From: Candidatus Woesearchaeota archaeon
GTDB taxonomy: Archaea > Nanobdellota > Nanobdellia > Pacearchaeales > GW2011-AR1
DNA length: 12,915 bases
Reading direction: 5' to 3'
NCBI GenBank assembly: GCA_964530955.1
Contig: CAZHCL010000017.1
Location: 1-12,915 of the forward strand
Part shown: one piece after another, positions 3,470 to 6,958 of the stretch
Numbering within the stretch: the stretch's first letter is position 1
How the letters are laid out: every line of letters starts with the position of its first letter
Notes under the pieces: generated by a model
The model's database searches: none
What the model was told of the DNA's origin: nothing
What the model saw: only the letters and a program-made list of their open reading frames with translations
Program-made: the position numbers and the translations under genes

Positions 3470-3480
3470 AAAAAATAAAA

Positions 3481-3729
3481 TTATTTCTTCAAACTTGTTG
3501 AAGCAGGAGAAATATAAATGATAGTATCTCCTCTTAGAAAAGTTAATCCTATATTTTTCTTTACCTGTCCATCCTGCATTTCCTTCGCATTATCAAGAAC
3601 AACATTAATATGTATATCAAAAGCCGCAAGAGTACCAACAAACTGCTTCTCTCCCTTTAATTGCACTAAAACTTCCTTTCCCTTTGATGCATTCAAAAGG
3701 TCAAGTGGTCTCTCAATTCCATTTGTCAT
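3481..3729 (-). CDS. lsm: Sm-like archaeal protein (SmAP/Lsm, snRNP-type)
   Basis: RPLDLL..SKGK.V.V.LK....GTL.AFD.HINVVL and LRGDTIIYISP (Sm1/Sm2 motifs). The ATG at 3729 is preferred over the track's TTG at 3741 because TTTAAATA (3751-3758) lies 22-29 nt upstream of it. Confidence 0.93.
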   Translation of the reverse strand: MTNGIERPLDLLNASKGKEVLVQLKGEKQFVGTLAAFDIHINVVLDNAKEMQDGQVKKNIGLTFLRGDTIIYISPASTSLKK

Positions 3730-3750
3730 AATTCTTTTCAACTCTCAGCA

Positions 3751-3758
3751 TATTTAAA
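3751..3758 (-). promoter_or_regulatory. TATA box of lsm, 5 nt from the transposon target duplication
   Basis: TTTAAATA on the minus strand, 22-29 nt upstream of the ATG at 3729. Confidence 0.7.
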
Positions 3759-3762
3759 TGTA

Positions 3763-3771
3763 TCGCTGGAT
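3763..3771 (+). repeat. left target-site duplication TCGCTGGAT
   Basis: Exact 9-bp direct copy at 9767-9775; both copies directly abut the inverted ends. Confidence 0.9.
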
Positions 3772-3796
3772 GGGAGTGTCTAACTTGCGTGGCTTT
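3772..3796 (+). repeat. left terminal inverted repeat GGGAGTGTC-TAACTTG-CGTGGCTTT
   Basis: Matches the reverse complement of 9742-9766 in two blocks. The outer block resembles IS6-family termini (IS26 begins GGCACTGTT). Confidence 0.88.
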
Positions 3797-5039
3797 CTAT
3801 CATTTTCTCCTCACGTGTCAAGTTCGTGGCTTTTTCTTGTTTAATTGATTGTAATAACATAGCATTCCATCTGTTTCCATTAACGCCAATTCCACATTTA
3901 TCCGCAGGGGTTAGCTTTTGTCTTGCAGATTTTCTTATAAAATTATGAAAAACTTTAAAGCCATCTTGATAGGTTTGAGTTTCTGTTACTCCTCTTCTAA
4001 TCTTATGAAATTCTTTCTGATGGGAATGATGAGATTCTATTGCATTGTTATTGACTATTTTTCTTTTACCCATTATTGTGGTAAATTTAACTTTCCGTTC
4101 ATTACCCCAATTTCTAAAAGTCTTTCTACATCCATCTTGATAACAAGGGTTACCATCAACTATAATTTGATATGGTATTTTTCCGTTCTGTTTTAATGCC
4201 TCTGTGAAAACCTTTTGTGCGTCTTTGCTATTTCTACTTCTGCCTGAATTGATAGAAGCAAGTAAGAATTTAGTTTTATTATCCATTACATTCCAGACAT
4301 AATCATATTCCTTATTTTGATTGTTCTTATTTTTCCTATCTATTCCTCTCTTGCTTAAAACAAGTGTTTCATCTGCATTCCATACATTACTTTGAGTTTG
4401 TGGTTTGATTGTTTCGCTATATTTTTCCATAGTTTGTGAAAATCTTAAAACCCAACTTCTTATAGTTTCGTGAGAAAGTTTTAATCCATAAAATTGTTGA
4501 AATTGGTCGCTTATGTCTCTATAACTTAATCCCTTATAGTAGCAGTCCATAGCAAGGCAAACAAGTTTAGTGTTTCCTTTAATCTGTTTGATTGGCTCTA
4601 AAATAAATCTTCTTTTACAATCCTTACAACAGAATAATTGTTTAAATCCGAGTTTAGTCTTACGTGTGCCTCTCTTAAACAGCTGTTCAGAGGCACAGTA
4701 AGGACAATTATCTCTTTTTTGTCCCTCAATTATTAACTCTACTTCTTTCTCTACTTGTGGCTCTACTTCATATTTTGCCTTAACCTTTTTAAATAATAAA
4801 ATAGCCTTAATGTGTTTGCAATAGAGATTTTTACCCAGACATCTTCTCTTAAAGTCTTCACACTCACAAGCATAACTATCTAAGTGTGTTACTCTATACT
4901 TTTTATGACTATCAAATTGAGATGGAACTAAATAAGTAAACTCATCTAATATTTGAGGGTTGCCTTTCTCTAAGATAATCTCTGCTCGTTTATTTCTCCA
5001 TTCAGAGAAGTTTTTAAGATATTGTGCTGTGTTTTCCAT
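3780..5039 (-). CDS. IS6/IS240-like DDE transposase with N-terminal SWIM zinc finger, C4 zinc ribbon and HTH
   Basis: SWIM C58-x-C60...C74-x-H76. Ribbon C112xxC115...C138xxC141. HTH GLSYRDIS...SHETIRSWV. Catalytic WNAD223E, IIVD295G and NNNAIE335S, plus YVWNVMD. The stop codon lies inside the left inverted repeat. Confidence 0.9.
   Translation of the reverse strand: MENTAQYLKNFSEWRNKRAEIILEKGNPQILDEFTYLVPSQFDSHKKYRVTHLDSYACECEDFKRRCLGKNLYCKHIKAILLFKKVKAKYEVEPQVEKEVELIIEGQKRDNCPYCASEQLFKRGTRKTKLGFKQLFCCKDCKRRFILEPIKQIKGNTKLVCLAMDCYYKGLSYRDISDQFQQFYGLKLSHETIRSWVLRFSQTMEKYSETIKPQTQSNVWNADETLVLSKRGIDRKNKNNQNKEYDYVWNVMDNKTKFLLASINSGRSRNSKDAQKVFTEALKQNGKIPYQIIVDGNPCYQDGCRKTFRNWGNERKVKFTTIMGKRKIVNNNAIESHHSHQKEFHKIRRGVTETQTYQDGFKVFHNFIRKSARQKLTPADKCGIGVNGNRWNAMLLQSIKQEKATNLTREEKMIESHAS
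3815..3833 (+). repeat. internal copy of the end motif (GTGTC-AAGTT-CGTGGCTTT) inside the transposase 3' coding region
   Basis: Same two conserved blocks as the terminal repeat, with a 5-nt spacer. Confidence 0.8.
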
Positions 5040-5046
5040 AATATAC

Positions 5047-5084
5047 TTAGGTGCCCGAAGTATATAAACATTTCGGTGCCCTAA
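5047..5084 (-). promoter_or_regulatory. transposase promoter: TATA (5061-5068) flanked by two 13-bp palindromic operators (5047-5059, 5072-5084)
   Basis: TTAGG-TGC-CCGAA and TTCGG-TGC-CCTAA, 25 bp apart, around TTTATATA (minus strand). Confidence 0.8.
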
Positions 5085-5108
5085 ATATATAATGCAGAAA
5101 TGTTTATA

Positions 5109-5159
5109 AGTCCTTAATTACTCACTTATAAGATATTAAATAGTGATTAAATAAGGACT
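5109..5159. promoter_or_regulatory. 51-bp imperfect palindrome directly upstream of the RHH gene (putative operator)
   Basis: Arms 5109-5126 (AGTCCTTAATTACTCACT) and 5142-5159 (AGTGATTAAATAAGGACT) pair at 16/18 positions without gaps, around a 15-nt AT-rich spacer. Confidence 0.65.
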
Positions 5160-5306
5160 ATGCAAAAACAGATTAAAATAACAGTTTCAGAAAAGCTTTA
5201 TAAAATCATAGAAACTAAAGCTAAGAGTATGGGCACAAAGACATCTACTTATTGTTATAACATCGTTTTTTCAGATGTAAAAAAAGAGGCAGATAAAAAT
5301 GATTGA
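5160..5306 (+). CDS. ribbon-helix-helix (CopG/Arc-like) DNA-binding protein, 48 aa, absent from the ORF track
   Basis: Hand translation: MQKQIKITVSEKLYKIIETKAKSMGTKTSTYCYNIVFSDVKKEADKND. Alternating beta-strand, helix A ending in G, then helix B. The stop overlaps the next start (ATGATTGA). Confidence 0.8.
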   Translation: MQKQIKITVSEKLYKIIETKAKSMGTKTSTYCYNIVFSDVKKEADKND

Positions 5307-5946
5307 AATTTTAAGTTCGATATACACTTTTTGGGGTTATATAGATGACGCCAATTATTTAAGAAAATTATTCAAGGTTATAGGTAAGTGGTTTAGTTTT
5401 CTTAAATGGTATTGGAAAAATCCAGAAATTCAAATAAAATATTCCAGACTTATTACTTGTCAATATGAGAAAAATACAATAAATAGCATACATACTACTC
5501 TAATAAATAAAAAAAAGAAATTTAGTGATGGTTTTAGCAAATCAAACAATCAAATGCAGTTTGAGATTGAAAATTCTAAGCTTAATTATCGCATAACGGT
5601 TGATAGAGTTAATCAGGAACAACAGAATATTTTATTTGAGAATAAGTATCTTTCTTTTTATCCTCTTAGAAAATTCAAGAGTTTAAACGCAATCACTAAT
5701 GAATTTAATGAAATATACGAAATAATATCAAATCCTCTATCTATTGAAAATAATAATAAGATTATTACGGTTGATGTTAAAGAGATAGATAACTCAAATA
5801 AAGAACAGATTAAGTTTGTAAAATCAAATGCTCAAATATCTTTTAAAGGCAACAGAATCCAAATAAAAAACTTTAATGGCACAGAACATGGAGAATTTTT
5901 ACTTTTCTTTATTATGAAATGGCTTACCGAATATAGAACGTCCTAA
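5299..5946 (+). CDS. hypothetical protein (215 aa), transposon cargo
   Basis: Long ORF in very AT-rich DNA, translationally coupled to the RHH gene. Aromatic/Trp-rich N-terminal helix. No family recognised. Confidence 0.7.
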   Translation: MIEILSSIYTFWGYIDDANYLRKLFKVIGKWFSFLKWYWKNPEIQIKYSRLITCQYEKNTINSIHTTLINKKKKFSDGFSKSNNQMQFEIENSKLNYRITVDRVNQEQQNILFENKYLSFYPLRKFKSLNAITNEFNEIYEIISNPLSIENNNKIITVDVKEIDNSNKEQIKFVKSNAQISFKGNRIQIKNFNGTEHGEFLLFFIMKWLTEYRTS

Positions 5947-6710
5947 TCCTCTATCCAATCTGTTAAAGGTTTTAGTTGGTCAATCAGTTTTTCAGGTATT
6001 TTTTCTTGATAATTTGAATAGGGGAGAAATGTTTTTACTATCTCTTTGTTTAGTATCAATTCATCTTTAAAATCTTTCATCTTTGTTTTACATAACAATG
6101 TGCCTTCTAAGTAAATAGCTACTTTTAGAGTATACCCAAAACTACTTACAAATTCTACACCTATGCCCATTCTATCATCAGGATTATCAACAAAATCATC
6201 ATCGTCATCAATTTCGTGACCGAATTGTCCAGAATATTGTATTTTGCCATCAAATCTAACACCATTAAACCATACATTCTGAAATATGCCTTTCTGTTTA
6301 GCTTCTAATACTTTTTGAGGTATAAAAAGAACAGAACCAATCTTGCCCGATTCTCCAAATAATACATTGCTTAAAATCTCTATCCCAAACAGTTTAGCTC
6401 TATCTTTTGAAGTAAAGCTTATGATTTTCAAATCTGGAAATATGATAAAATTAACTTCATCGTATAAAAAAGCTTCATTTGGCTTCTTTTCAATTTCAAA
6501 CTCATCATCAATATTGAACAAAAAGTCATCAAAACTTCTTTTAACTGCTATCTTTCCATAAACATAACCGTCATCTTTATCACTTATTATAAAATTACCT
6601 ATTGTAAAATTATTAACTTTAGGTATTTTAAGAGTTTGAGAAATATTTTTGAGAGCATACACTATTTGGTCTTTAGTTAAACTTCCTTCATATTTTGATA
6701 TGAATGCCAT
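5943..6710 (-). CDS. hypothetical protein (255 aa), transposon cargo
   Basis: Long ORF with its own TTTATATC box (6731-6738) 21-28 nt upstream. Acidic stretch EIDDDDDFVDNPDD. Convergent 4-nt overlap with the 215-aa gene. Confidence 0.75.
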   Translation of the reverse strand: MAFISKYEGSLTKDQIVYALKNISQTLKIPKVNNFTIGNFIISDKDDGYVYGKIAVKRSFDDFLFNIDDEFEIEKKPNEAFLYDEVNFIIFPDLKIISFTSKDRAKLFGIEILSNVLFGESGKIGSVLFIPQKVLEAKQKGIFQNVWFNGVRFDGKIQYSGQFGHEIDDDDDFVDNPDDRMGIGVEFVSSFGYTLKVAIYLEGTLLCKTKMKDFKDELILNKEIVKTFLPYSNYQEKIPEKLIDQLKPLTDWIED

Positions 6711-6740
6711 AAAAATGCCAGACAGTATACGATATAAACC

Positions 6741-6911
6741 TTATTCTTTCTTCTTATCTTCTTCTATGATAATTTTATTATTCTTAGTAGTGATTTTTAG
6801 TTCTTTGCCTATTAAACCAGATTCTTCGGCTACTGCTTTCGGCAAAGGTGCCCTAAACTTATAATATTCGGTTTTACCTACGGTCTTATCATACGTCTCT
6901 ATTATTTTCAT
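6741..6911 (-). CDS. AbrB/MazE/SpoVT-like DNA-binding protein, 56 aa, absent from the ORF track
   Basis: Hand translation: MKIIETYDKTVGKTEYYKFRAPLPKAVAEESGLIGKELKITTKNNKIIIEEDKKKE. The LPK..AE..GL.G.EL.I....NKIII pattern fits the swapped-hairpin fold. TATA-like CTTAAATA 22-29 nt upstream. Confidence 0.82.
   Translation of the reverse strand: MKIIETYDKTVGKTEYYKFRAPLPKAVAEESGLIGKELKITTKNNKIIIEEDKKKE
6844..6856. promoter_or_regulatory. fifth operator-like copy (AAAGG-TGC-CCTAA) inside the AbrB-like gene
   Basis: 11/13 match to TTAGG-TGC-CCTAA; lies exactly 75 bp (3 x 25) from the 6919 copy. Confidence 0.5.
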
Positions 6912-6918
6912 AAGATAA

Positions 6919-6956
6919 TTAGGTGCCCTAACTATTTAAGTCTTTAGGTGCCCGAT
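6919..6956 (-). promoter_or_regulatory. AbrB-like gene promoter: TATA (6933-6940) flanked by two 13-bp palindromic operators (6919-6931, 6944-6956)
   Basis: TTAGG-TGC-CCTAA (perfect arms) and TTAGG-TGC-CCGAT, 25 bp apart. Offsets from the ATG are identical to those at the transposase promoter. Confidence 0.82.
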
Positions 6957-6958
6957 AA

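What the first reader, a model, noticed from the sequence alone, without database searches (positions are those of the whole stretch)
5047..6956. Shared operator code: transposase and a hidden AbrB-like gene have identical promoter geometry
Seen: a 13-bp palindrome, consensus TTAGG-TGC-CCTAA, occurs at 5047, 5072, 6919 and 6944, plus 6844 inside the AbrB-like gene. For both genes the copies lie 8-20 and 33-45 nt upstream of the ATG (5039 and 6911), with the TATA box at 22-29 nt, so the core promoter and BRE position are sandwiched by two operators 25 bp apart. Established knowledge: AbrB/SpoVT-fold proteins commonly autorepress. Inference: the 56-aa AbrB-like protein represses itself and the transposase, giving the element its own control circuit for mobility, which is unusual for an IS6-type element.
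Basis: partly seen in the sequence, partly recalled or inferred. Interest (0 to 1): 0.85.

Follow-up and report, generated by a model that had tools for sequence, protein, structure and literature searches.

The report
Transposon's own repressor and operator sites
A 6-kb jumping gene in a tiny-genome (DPANN) archaeon carries a 56-residue AbrB-type DNA-binding protein whose palindromic docking sites bracket the TATA box of both its own gene and the transposase gene, and the same protein-plus-sites cassette recurs in about 65 related archaeal elements, even with unrelated transposases, so it is most likely the element's built-in off-switch.

Summary
GGTGCCC occurs five times in the window, all on one strand, where 0.2 is expected, and only six times in the other 748 kb of the genome.

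Four copies form two identical modules: site, BRE/TATA, site, then ATG 7 nt later. One module precedes the transposase gene, the other the 56-aa gene.

The TATA-to-ATG distance itself is the host's general leaderless rule. Only the flanking dyads are special.

Both genes lie in a 5,995-bp IS6-like cargo transposon (3772-9766) with imperfect inverted repeats and a 9-bp target duplication. The site is empty in four relatives.

In 65 Woese-/Pace-/Nanoarchaeota loci the same small gene sits beside a transposase behind the same module.

- The site core differs between elements but matches between the two promoters of one element.
- The core follows the small protein (partial Mantel r=0.62, p=2e-4), not the transposase (r=-0.08).
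- The transposases belong to two unrelated families, IS6/IS240 and DDE_Tnp_1.

The protein models confidently as a beta-beta-alpha-beta-beta AbrB/MazE-like swapped-hairpin dimer.

Autorepressor plus transposase repressor is therefore well supported by computation, but binding is untested. Earlier notes of this scan report the same kind of module in other genomes. No paper describing it was found.

The parts
3763..3771 (.). Left copy of the 9-bp target-site duplication TCGCTGGAT
   Evidence: Exact repeat of 9767-9775. The two flanking genes are adjacent, about 120-140 nt apart, in four same-genus genomes.
3772..3795 (+). Left terminal inverted repeat GGGAGTGTCTAACTTGCGTGGCTT. It overlaps the transposase stop codon, and an inner sub-repeat TGTCAAGTTCGTGGCTTTT lies near 3815-3836.
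   Evidence: Aligns with the reverse complement of 9743-9766. Homologous end blocks occur in the G008 and G001 elements. These ends differ in sequence from the operators.
3780..5039 (-). Transposase, 419 aa: SWIM-like Cys/His motif, zinc ribbon, then an IS6/IS240-type DDE domain
   Evidence: Pfam PF13610, 37.2 bits against a cut-off of 27. It is single-copy in this assembly. Homologues at 63-73% identity occur in three same-genus genomes.
5047..5059 (-). Proximal operator of the transposase promoter. It reads TTCGGGCACCTAA on the gene strand and spans -20..-8.
5061..5068 (-). TATA box of the transposase promoter (TTTATATA on the gene strand, -29..-22). The BRE-like GAAATG lies at 5069-5074.
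   Evidence: Read directly from the sequence. The position matches the host-wide TATA peak at -29.
5072..5084 (-). Distal operator of the transposase promoter. It reads TTAGGGCACCGAA on the gene strand and spans -45..-33. Its 3' half-site overlaps the BRE.
5160..5306 (+). Cargo: a 48-aa ribbon-helix-helix-like gene, divergent from the transposase gene, preceded by its own 18-nt-arm inverted repeat (5109-5159)
   Evidence: Weak Pfam NikA-like hit, E 8.7e-5. Inverted repeat I16. Homologues were found only in L039 and L041, so it is not the general binder of the dyads.
5299..5946 (+). Cargo: 215-aa protein of unknown function
   Evidence: No Pfam family above cut-off. Conserved in L039 and L041 at 79-83% identity and weakly in L094.
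5943..6710 (-). Cargo: 255-aa protein of unknown function, downstream of the AbrB-like gene. It has its own TATA (6731-6738) and no operator.
   Evidence: No Pfam family. Conserved in L039 and L041 at about 80% identity. The TATA was read from the sequence.
6741..6911 (-). The 56-aa AbrB/MazE-like gene, the proposed repressor
   Evidence: AF2 model with pLDDT 92.5 and beta-beta-alpha-beta-beta order. The top Foldseek hits are MazE, VapB, C68, AbrB and C56, all with weak E-values. PF04014 is matched by 41 of 67 family members. A homodimer model scores 0.50 against 0.00 for the best control.
6844..6856 (-). Fifth, intragenic copy (TTAGGGCACCTTT on the gene strand). It lies in the codons for Arg20-Ala21-Pro22, 56-68 nt downstream of the ATG (gene-strand positions +56 to +68).
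   Evidence: GGGCACC is kept at this place in 4 of 7 genes of the same protein class, so its function is uncertain.
6919..6931 (-). Proximal operator of the AbrB-like promoter. It reads TTAGGGCACCTAA on the gene strand and spans -20..-8.
6933..6940 (-). TATA box of the AbrB-like promoter (CTTAAATA on the gene strand, -29..-22)
   Evidence: Read from the sequence. The position fits the host rule.
6944..6956 (-). Distal operator of the AbrB-like promoter. It reads ATCGGGCACCTAA on the gene strand and spans -45..-33. It begins 2 nt after the stop codon of the R-M gene.
6959..9670 (-). Cargo: 903-aa type IIG restriction-modification fusion protein with its own operator-less promoter
   Evidence: Pfam Eco57I 1.4e-31, N6_Mtase 1.5e-30 and TaqI_C. 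Its upstream region shows no dyad. Homologues lie directly upstream of the AbrB module in L079 and L074.
9743..9766 (-). Right terminal inverted repeat (GAGAGTGTCAAGGATTCGTGGCTT read inward), with an inner sub-repeat
9767..9775 (.). Right copy of the target-site duplication TCGCTGGAT

Best explanation
The 56-aa protein is an AbrB/MazE-type swapped-hairpin dimer encoded by the transposon. One dimer binds each 13-bp pseudo-palindrome, TT(A/C)GG-GCA-CC(G/T)AA.

At both its own promoter and the transposase promoter, one site overlaps the BRE (-45..-33). A second site fills the stretch between the TATA box and the leaderless start (-20..-8). Occupied sites would block TFB/TBP binding and RNA polymerase recruitment.

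The protein would therefore hold its own level steady by negative feedback and keep the transposase low in an established host. A burst of transposase is expected when the element enters a cell that lacks the repressor.

Shown here: the sites, their geometry, their conservation, their co-variation with the protein, and the predicted fold. Inferred: binding, repression rather than activation, and the entry-burst consequence.

The cassette of repressor gene plus two operator-flanked promoters is portable. It serves IS6-like and DDE_Tnp_1 transposases alike, and its specificity has diversified between elements.
For: (1) Non-random sites in identical geometry at both promoters, found nowhere else in the genome.

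(2) 65 related loci were found in Woese-/Pace-/Nanoarchaeota genomes. 43 of the 68 small genes examined, and the gene of at least 120 aa in 37 loci, lie behind the same module with the ATG 7-8 nt after it. All of those larger genes that were checked are transposases.

(3) The core differs between elements: GGGCACC, GGGTGCC/GGGTTCC, CAGGTACC, CATGTACC, GTGGTACC, CGGATACC. It agrees between the two promoters of one element. Core identity is 0.80 within an element and 0.68 between elements (p=1e-4). The promoter-type-specific non-core bases stay distinct, which argues against simple homogenisation of two duplicate promoters.

(4) The core follows the small protein and not the transposase. The partial Mantel r is 0.62 (p=2e-4) against -0.08 (p=0.83) over 36 elements.

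(5) The same GGGCACC core and the same protein class (RAPLPK) serve three transposases: a SWIM-IS6 type (window), a short IS6 type (L040, L041) and an unrelated DDE_Tnp_1 type (L039). G008 has a transposase 73% identical to the window's but a small protein only 45% identical, and its cores differ.

(6) Arg at residue 20 goes with CGG cores in 11 of 11 elements. Ile or Leu goes with CA(T/G)GTAC or GTGGTACC cores in 24 of 25, the 25th being a frame-shifted core read.

(7) In L042 the centre of the proximal site is inverted relative to the gene. This fits recognition by a symmetric dimer.

(8) Fold: AF2 pLDDT 92.5 with beta-beta-alpha-beta-beta order. The top Foldseek hits are all AbrB/MazE/VapB/C68/C56. 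PF04014 is matched by 41 of 67 members.

(9) The homodimer model scores 0.50 against a best control of 0.00. That mark was reached by 20 of 30 proteins solved as pairs of one chain and by 1 of 23 solved as single chains. The runs agree in 100% of contacts, and pLDDT is at least 77. Similar dimers are solved, so the pass may come from memory.

(10) Established knowledge: AbrB-fold regulators and antitoxins autorepress through palindromes. C68 of pSSVx binds a site overlapping the BRE of its own promoter (PMC5569661). Archaeal repressors act by occluding the BRE/TATA or the region just downstream.
Against: The window protein itself is below the Pfam cut-off (17.7 against 24.7 bits). A family profile finds no solved structure by sequence, and the Foldseek E-values are all 0.2 or worse.

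The small gene lies physically between the two modules. Co-inheritance of one DNA block would therefore also make the cores follow the small gene. Related elements are not independent samples, so the permutation p-values overstate the case.

The host encodes five other PF04014-domain proteins.

One close relative of the transposase (G001, 73% identical) has neither this small protein nor these sites. The circuit is therefore dispensable.
Confidence: 0.75

Rival explanations
1. The dyads are bound by the transposase itself, through its zinc-ribbon/HTH N-terminus, or by a host factor. The AbrB-like protein would then do something else.
For: Some transposases and their truncated forms repress their own promoters, for example IS1 InsA (established knowledge). 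The host has five other AbrB/MazE-domain proteins. No binding data exist.
Against: Identical cores occur with three transposase types, including an unrelated DDE_Tnp_1 family. The core shows no residual correlation with transposase distance. The transposon ends, which the transposase must recognise, have a different sequence. Elements in genomes of one genus have different cores, which a conserved host factor would not explain.
Confidence: 0.07
2. No dedicated binder exists. The two modules are simply duplicated copies of one strong promoter, and the GG..CC blocks are inherited promoter sequence.
For: The two 49-nt regions are 80% identical. BRE, TATA and the spacing are the generic host promoter.
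Against: General host promoters carry no information at -46..-37 or -21..-8. The cores are palindromic, perfectly kept (14 of 14 bases in the window) and co-vary within elements, while the BRE/TATA flavour stays typical of each gene. The orientation of the centre can flip (L042).
Confidence: 0.05
3. The protein binds the dyads but acts as an activator, or as a dual switch, rather than a pure repressor. For example, the distal site might help recruit TFB.
For: Archaeal activators are known to bind just upstream of the BRE (established knowledge). The distal AbrB-promoter sites are more degenerate than the proximal ones.
Against: The second site lies between the TATA box and the start, where bound proteins block polymerase recruitment. 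The promoters already have near-consensus BRE/TATA sequences and should not need activation.
Confidence: 0.07
4. The protein is primarily the antitoxin of a toxin-antitoxin or addiction pair with the downstream 255-aa gene, and the transposase sites are incidental. A variant is that the modules are mainly recombination junctions for swapping cassettes.
For: PF04014 is an antitoxin family. The 255-aa gene follows 30 nt downstream. The 1.92-kb block conserved among W, L039 and L041 ends exactly at the two modules. TA pairs embedded in Tn3-family transposition modules are known (PMC7157771).
Against: In most elements the small gene is followed directly by the transposase with no candidate toxin. 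The 255-aa gene has its own TATA and no toxin-family match. AbrB-fold proteins have no recombinase chemistry.
Confidence: 0.06

Closest known systems
C68 of the Sulfolobus plasmid-virus pSSVx (PDB 3o27) and C56 of pSSVi (PDB 7xi6)
   Same: A small archaeal AbrB-like swapped-hairpin protein of about 7 kDa, encoded on a mobile element and lacking a C-terminal oligomerisation domain. C68 binds a site overlapping the BRE of its own promoter, next to a divergent RHH (CopG-like) gene (PMC5569661). Both proteins appear among the top structural matches.
   Different: C68 recognises a non-palindromic TATG(C/GG)TTTTC motif and sits on a plasmid-virus of Crenarchaeota, with no transposase under its control. 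Here paired palindromes bracket the TATA box at two promoters, one of them a transposase promoter, in DPANN transposons. Sequence similarity to C68 is not detectable.
Tn3 TnpR acting at res between tnpR and tnpA; also IS1 InsA
   Same: It works like them. An element-encoded DNA-binding protein binds sites that overlap both its own promoter and the transposase promoter, giving autoregulation and low transposition (established knowledge; summarised in PMC7157771).
   Different: TnpR is a serine recombinase whose sites double as the resolution site, and InsA binds the terminal repeats. Here the protein has an AbrB fold with no catalytic domain. The sites are separate from the transposon ends, and the logic is occlusion of an archaeal BRE/TATA promoter.
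IS6/IS26 family insertion sequences
   Same: An IS240-type DDE domain. The ends have a GG tip and a (c/g)TGT(c/t) motif, as described for the family (PMC7986276). The target duplication is short.
   Different: The family is described as single-ORF, with one passenger-carrying member in ISfinder and no regulator gene (PMC7986276). This lineage carries a second, regulatory ORF in its minimal 1.3-kb form, and here it also carries 4 cargo genes. The duplication is 9 bp rather than 8. The transposase has a SWIM-like N-terminal extension.
Type II antitoxins of the MazE/VapB (AbrB-fold) type and R-M controller (C) proteins
   Same: A small dimeric DNA binder that autorepresses through palindromic operators in tandem. 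Here it lies next to an R-M gene.
   Different: Most elements have no toxin partner. C proteins are HTH proteins that control the R gene, whereas the R-M promoter here lacks the sites.

Membership tests
AbrB/MazE/SpoVT swapped-hairpin superfamily (Pfam PF04014 clan) | Sequence match to a family model above the curated cut-off | tested here: inconclusive
   The window protein scores 17.7 bits against a cut-off of 24.7 (E 0.0035). Of its 67 family members, 41 match PF04014 at E<=0.1, with a best E-value of 7.4e-7. A profile search of PDB sequences finds nothing.
AbrB/MazE/SpoVT swapped-hairpin superfamily (Pfam PF04014 clan) | Beta-beta-alpha-beta-beta order of secondary structure in a domain of about 50 residues | tested here: met
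   The AF2 model has pLDDT 92.5, with strands at 4-11, 14-20, 38-43 and 46-51 and a helix at 25-31.
AbrB/MazE/SpoVT swapped-hairpin superfamily (Pfam PF04014 clan) | Structural similarity to solved members | tested here: inconclusive
   The top Foldseek hits are MazE (2mrn, 1ub4, 1mvf), VapB, C68 (3o27), AbrB (1yfb, 2k1n) and C56 (7xi6). However, E-values are 0.2-3.6 and TM-scores 0.3-0.5. A lone chain of an intertwined dimer aligns poorly.
AbrB/MazE/SpoVT swapped-hairpin superfamily (Pfam PF04014 clan) | Intertwined homodimer | tested here: met
   The two-copy model scores 0.50 against a best control of 0.00, with a symmetric interface through residues 16-25 and 45-51. The mark was reached by 20 of 30 solved homodimers and 1 of 23 single chains. 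The pass may come from memory of solved relatives.
AbrB/MazE/SpoVT swapped-hairpin superfamily (Pfam PF04014 clan) | Sequence-specific DNA binding | not testable with these tools
   Indirect evidence only: the operator core co-varies with the protein.
IS6/IS26 family | DDE transposase with an IS240-type catalytic domain | tested here: met
   PF13610 scores 37.2 bits against a cut-off of 27.
IS6/IS26 family | Short terminal inverted repeats with a GG tip and a cTGTt motif | tested here: met
   The window has GGGAGTGTC... and GAGAGTGTC.... The minimal relatives have GAGCTGTTAAG. The motif is as described in PMC7986276. The repeats are imperfect, 17 of 24 bases.
IS6/IS26 family | 8-bp target duplication | tested here: inconclusive
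   The direct repeat TCGCTGGAT is 9 bp. It could be 8 bp plus one chance base.
IS6/IS26 family | A single transposase ORF filling the element | tested here: not met
   The minimal relatives have two ORFs, and this copy has six.
Transposon-encoded repressor of transposase (Tn3 TnpR/res type) | Repressor gene inside the element, with its sites overlapping both its own and the transposase promoter | tested here: met
   Both genes and both modules lie within 3772-9766.
Transposon-encoded repressor of transposase (Tn3 TnpR/res type) | The repressor is also the site-specific recombinase, and its sites form the resolution site | tested here: not met
   The 56-aa protein has an AbrB fold only and no recombinase domain.
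Type II toxin-antitoxin pair (MazE/VapB antitoxin) | An adjacent cognate toxin gene | tested here: not met
   The downstream 255-aa gene has no toxin family and has its own TATA. In most of the 65 loci the next gene is the transposase.
R-M controller (C) protein / C-box | An HTH protein whose operators control the restriction gene's promoter | tested here: not met
   The fold is not HTH, and the R-M gene's upstream region has no dyad.

The most novel reading that the evidence does not exclude
The small repressor gene with its two operator-flanked promoters is an autonomous, portable control cassette. Two unrelated transposase superfamilies of DPANN archaea, IS6-like and IS4/IS5-like DDE_Tnp_1, have captured it repeatedly.

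Its near-invariant promoter modules serve as the junctions at which transposases and cargo blocks are exchanged. Its recognition code (residues 17-22 against the operator core) has diversified into mutually orthogonal 'immunity groups'. Co-resident elements would then not silence one another, as with phage immunity or plasmid incompatibility.
Probability: 0.3. Interest if true: 0.8.

Novelty: new variant of a known kind. Interest (0 to 1): 0.62.

Why it matters
Regulation of transposition in archaea is almost unstudied, and DPANN archaea cannot yet be manipulated genetically.

This finding gives a compact system that can be tested in vitro. It needs one 56-residue protein and 13-bp sites at two promoters. 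Natural specificity variants exist, and one residue-to-base correlation is clear: Arg20 goes with CGG cores, Ile or Leu with CA(T/G)G or GTGG cores.

The system could show how a minimal AbrB-fold protein reads DNA. It could also show how an archaeal BRE/TATA promoter is shut from both sides.

The IS6 family is described as single-ORF elements without a regulator (PMC7986276). A lineage with a built-in repressor, which also carries restriction-modification cargo, extends that picture. The same cassette on unrelated transposases suggests modular, plug-and-play evolution of mobile-element control.

Tried and rejected
- A profile of the 67-member family against PDB sequences gave nothing meaningful; the best hit was PCNA at E 0.31.
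- Foldseek on the single-chain model gave only weak E-values, although the top hits were consistent with one another.
- The first nine-sequence alignment was too diverse for the search for related loci. A five-sequence alignment worked.
- A scan of viral contigs for the small protein found no relative.
There is therefore no expression evidence.
- I looked for the operators at the transposon ends, to test whether they are transposase-binding terminal repeats. They are not. The ends have their own bipartite repeats, TGTC-N-CGTGGCTT.
- The RHH protein as binder was rejected, because it is present in only 3 elements.
- An R-M controller role was rejected, because the R-M promoter has no site.
- An antitoxin role was rejected as the general function, because most elements have no toxin candidate.
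- Literature searches found no description of this arrangement. The term sets were IS6+archaea+AbrB, insertion sequence+AbrB+repressor+archaea, and DPANN+transposase+AbrB.
Full report
**1. The observation**

The 13-mer occurs at 5047, 5072, 6844, 6919 and 6944, with at most two mismatches to TTAGGTGCCCTAA and always on the + strand. Shuffles give 0.27 such matches, and none of 200 reaches five.

- The invariant core GGTGCCC occurs five times against 0.20 expected.
- The whole 761-kb assembly, of which this window is contig 17, holds only six further copies. None of them is paired.

On the coding strand the two promoters read:
- Transposase (ATG at 5039): TTAGGGCACC-GAAATG-TTTATATA-C-TTCGGGCACCTAA-GTATATT-ATG.
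- Small gene (ATG at 6911): ATCGGGCACC-TAAAGA-CTTAAATA-G-TTAGGGCACCTAA-TTATCTT-ATG.

**2. What is generic and what is special**

The organism is an archaeon with a small genome. A TFB gene lies at 10355-11284, and the assembly is 83% complete at 0.76 Mb.

Among 432 ORFs of 200 aa or more, a TATA-like 8-mer starts exactly 29 nt before the ATG in 79. Leaderless transcripts with TATA at -29..-22 are therefore the host's rule.

In those 79 promoters, information is confined to -36..-32 (the BRE) and -29..-22 (the TATA). Positions -46..-37 and -21..-8 carry none. Only the transposase promoter has GG..CC dyads on both sides. The small gene is too short to be in that set.

The identical TATA distance is thus ordinary. 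The dyads that flank it are the real feature.

**3. The setting**

Both genes lie inside a 5,995-bp element, 3772-9766.
- Its imperfect inverted ends are GGGAGTGTCTAACTTGCGTGGCTT and GAGAGTGTCAAGGATTCGTGGCTT, each with an inner sub-repeat.
- It is flanked by a 9-bp direct repeat, TCGCTGGAT.
- G+C falls to 0.25-0.30 inside the element, against about 0.35 outside.
- In four genomes of the same genus, the flanking 86-aa and 121-aa genes are neighbours about 120-140 nt apart. This is an insertion.

The element carries six genes:
- the 419-aa transposase, with a SWIM-like motif, a zinc ribbon and an IS240-type DDE domain;
- a divergent RHH-like gene followed by a 215-aa gene;
- a 255-aa gene;
- the 56-aa gene;
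- a 903-aa type IIG restriction-modification gene.

The ends differ in sequence from the dyads, so the dyads are not the transposase's terminal binding sites.

**4. Comparative evidence**

Searching 40 relatives showed that homologues of the small protein lie next to transposase homologues in at least eight genomes, sometimes with other genes between them.

A scan of one genome per species returned 65 loci, all but one from Woese-, Pace- or Nanoarchaeota bins. The exception is a 3.8-kb contig binned as a bacterium.

I scanned the loci with a template that scores only the constant parts of the module (TT-N6-CC-GAAAG-N-TTTAWATA-N-TT-N6-CC-TNA).
- The module precedes 43 of the 68 small genes examined, and the gene of at least 120 aa in 37 loci. 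The ATG follows 7-8 nt later.
- The same scan of the host genome finds the window's two promoters (three hits, because the module is nearly symmetric). It finds only three other, borderline hits without dyads.

The minimal element is about 1.3 kb: left end, module, small gene, module, transposase, right end.

**5. Who reads the sites**

The core varies among elements: GGGCACC, GGGTGCC/GGGTTCC, CAGGTACC, CATGTACC, GTGGTACC, CGGATACC. Within one element it is the same at both promoters.
- Core identity is 0.80 within elements and 0.68 between them (p=1e-4 when the pairing is shuffled).
- Non-core positions barely differ (0.78 against 0.76). They keep a gene-specific flavour: GACAa-TTTAAATA before the small gene and GAAAGG-TTTATATA before the transposase. 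This argues against simple homogenisation of two promoter copies.

Across 36 elements, operator distance correlates with distance between the small proteins after controlling for the transposase (partial r=0.62, p=2e-4). It does not correlate with transposase distance after controlling for the small protein (r=-0.08, p=0.83).

The transposases behind the module belong to two unrelated Pfam families.
- 30 are IS6/IS240-like (PF13610), in three length classes.
- 6 are DDE_Tnp_1 (PF01609).

Three natural swap cases bear on the binder.
- A 1.92-kb block, window 6955 to 5034, runs from the distal site of the small gene to just past the transposase ATG. It is about 80% identical in L041 and L039.
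- In L041 that block is joined to a short IS6 transposase, and in L039 to a DDE_Tnp_1 transposase.
- G008 has a transposase 73% identical to the window's but a small protein only 45% identical, and its cores differ.

G001 has a 73%-identical transposase but lacks both this small protein and the dyads. The RHH gene occurs in only three elements.

The small protein is therefore the only element-encoded candidate that always travels with the sites.

Residues 17-22 and 4 co-vary most with the core.
- Arg20 goes with CGG cores in 11 of 11 elements.
- Ile or Leu goes with CA(T/G)GTAC or GTGGTACC cores in 24 of 25. The 25th is a core read out of register.

In L042 the asymmetric centre of one site is inverted relative to the gene, as expected for a symmetric reader.

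Two caveats apply.
- The small gene lies between the two modules, so linkage alone makes the sites follow it.
- Related elements are not independent samples.

**6. The protein**

- Pfam gives only a sub-threshold MazE_antitoxin hit for the window protein. 41 of its 67 relatives hit that family, with a best E-value of 7.4e-7.
- AlphaFold2 with the family alignment gives pLDDT 92.5 and beta-beta-alpha-beta-beta order.
- The top Foldseek matches are MazE, VapB, C68 of pSSVx, AbrB and C56 of pSSVi, all with weak statistics.
- A two-copy model scores 0.50 against 0.00 for the best of three controls. That mark was reached by 20 of 30 solved homodimers and 1 of 23 single chains. The runs agree in 100% of contacts, and pLDDT is at least 77. 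Like dimers are solved, so this shows likeness more than proof.

**7. Mechanism**

The distal site's inner half (CCGAA) overlaps the BRE. The proximal site fills -20..-8, between the TATA and the leaderless start.

Proteins bound at these places in archaeal promoters block TFB/TBP binding or polymerase recruitment (established knowledge). C68 likewise binds over the BRE of its own promoter (PMC5569661).

I therefore read the protein as an autorepressor that also represses the transposase. It works like TnpR at res in Tn3, or like InsA in IS1, but with a different fold and with archaeal promoter logic. The sites are 25 bp apart centre to centre. Whether the two dimers cooperate across the TATA is unknown.

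**8. The fifth site**

The intragenic copy lies in the codons for Arg20-Ala21-Pro22. GGGCACC is kept there in 4 of 7 genes of this protein class. The other three use synonymous codons that break it. It may be a weak auxiliary site or an accident of codon choice.

**9. Novelty**

- The IS6 family review describes single-ORF elements, one passenger-carrying member and no regulator (PMC7986276).
- TA pairs embedded in Tn3 transposition modules are the nearest published idea (PMC7157771).
- Three literature searches found no account of an AbrB-type repressor in archaeal insertion sequences.
- Earlier notes of this scan describe the same kind of module on other genomes. Within the scan this is therefore a further instance.

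**10. Verdict**

Binding and repression remain to be shown at the bench.

Noticed in passing
window 5034-6955; L041:3957-5876; L039:1961-3862: A 1.92-kb block is about 80% identical in three elements whose transposases differ (SWIM-IS6, short IS6, DDE_Tnp_1). The block comprises the small gene, the 255-aa gene, the 215-aa gene, the RHH gene and both operator modules. Homology starts and stops exactly at the two promoter-operator modules, as if these were the junctions of exchange.
   Followed up: partly
window 6959-9670; L079:1205-3949; L074:371-3079: Homologues of the type IIG restriction-modification gene (49% and 35% identity) lie directly upstream of the AbrB-like module in two other elements. 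Those elements have different repressor classes and different transposase families. In L079 the gap to the module is only a few nt, as in the window.
   Followed up: partly
L028 (G001:C4) 4248-9770: This element has a transposase 73% identical to the window's and homologous ends, but a different small AbrB-like protein of 53 aa. Its promoter carries three TTAACGTTAA-type palindromes. The transposase promoter instead has a CATTAG...CTAATG inverted repeat. The regulator seems to have been replaced.
   Followed up: no
L033 (G013:C88) 1636-2600; L034 (G004:C3) 3475-3740: A more distant subfamily of the small protein begins MKLQK..SRKVG. In one case it is fused to a C-terminal part of about 220 aa (273 aa in total). 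It lies divergent from the transposase, with four TAGGCGCC/TAGGTACC-type sites in the shared intergenic region.
   Followed up: no
L048:4164, L054:3583, L037:5440-5550, L097:5613-5714: These are decayed elements. The small gene is intact, but the transposase promoter is cut off after the TATA, or the transposase is reduced to a stub of 34-37 codons.
   Followed up: no
window 5109-5159: An 18-nt-arm inverted repeat (AGTCCTTAATTACTCACT / AGTGATTAAATAAGGACT) ends at the ATG of the RHH gene. It is a likely separate operator for the RHH protein. A similar sequence stands at the same place in L041.
   Followed up: no
window 3742-3771 and 9767-9888; L109-L112: The site is empty in relatives. The 86-aa and 121-aa genes that flank the transposon are adjacent in four same-genus genomes. 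A TATA-like ATATTTAAAT lies 12 nt outside the left end.
   Followed up: partly
G000 contigs C14:10173, C4:33885, C2:4465, C11:14049, C7:11939: The host has five other AbrB/MazE-domain (PF04014) proteins above the Pfam cut-off. Three of them lie inside open frames of 310-362 aa.
   Followed up: no
window 6711-6740: The 255-aa cargo gene has its own BRE/TATA (GGTTTATATC on the gene strand, with the TATA at 6731-6738) 20 nt before its ATG. It has no dyad, so it is probably transcribed independently of the repressor's operators.
   Followed up: no
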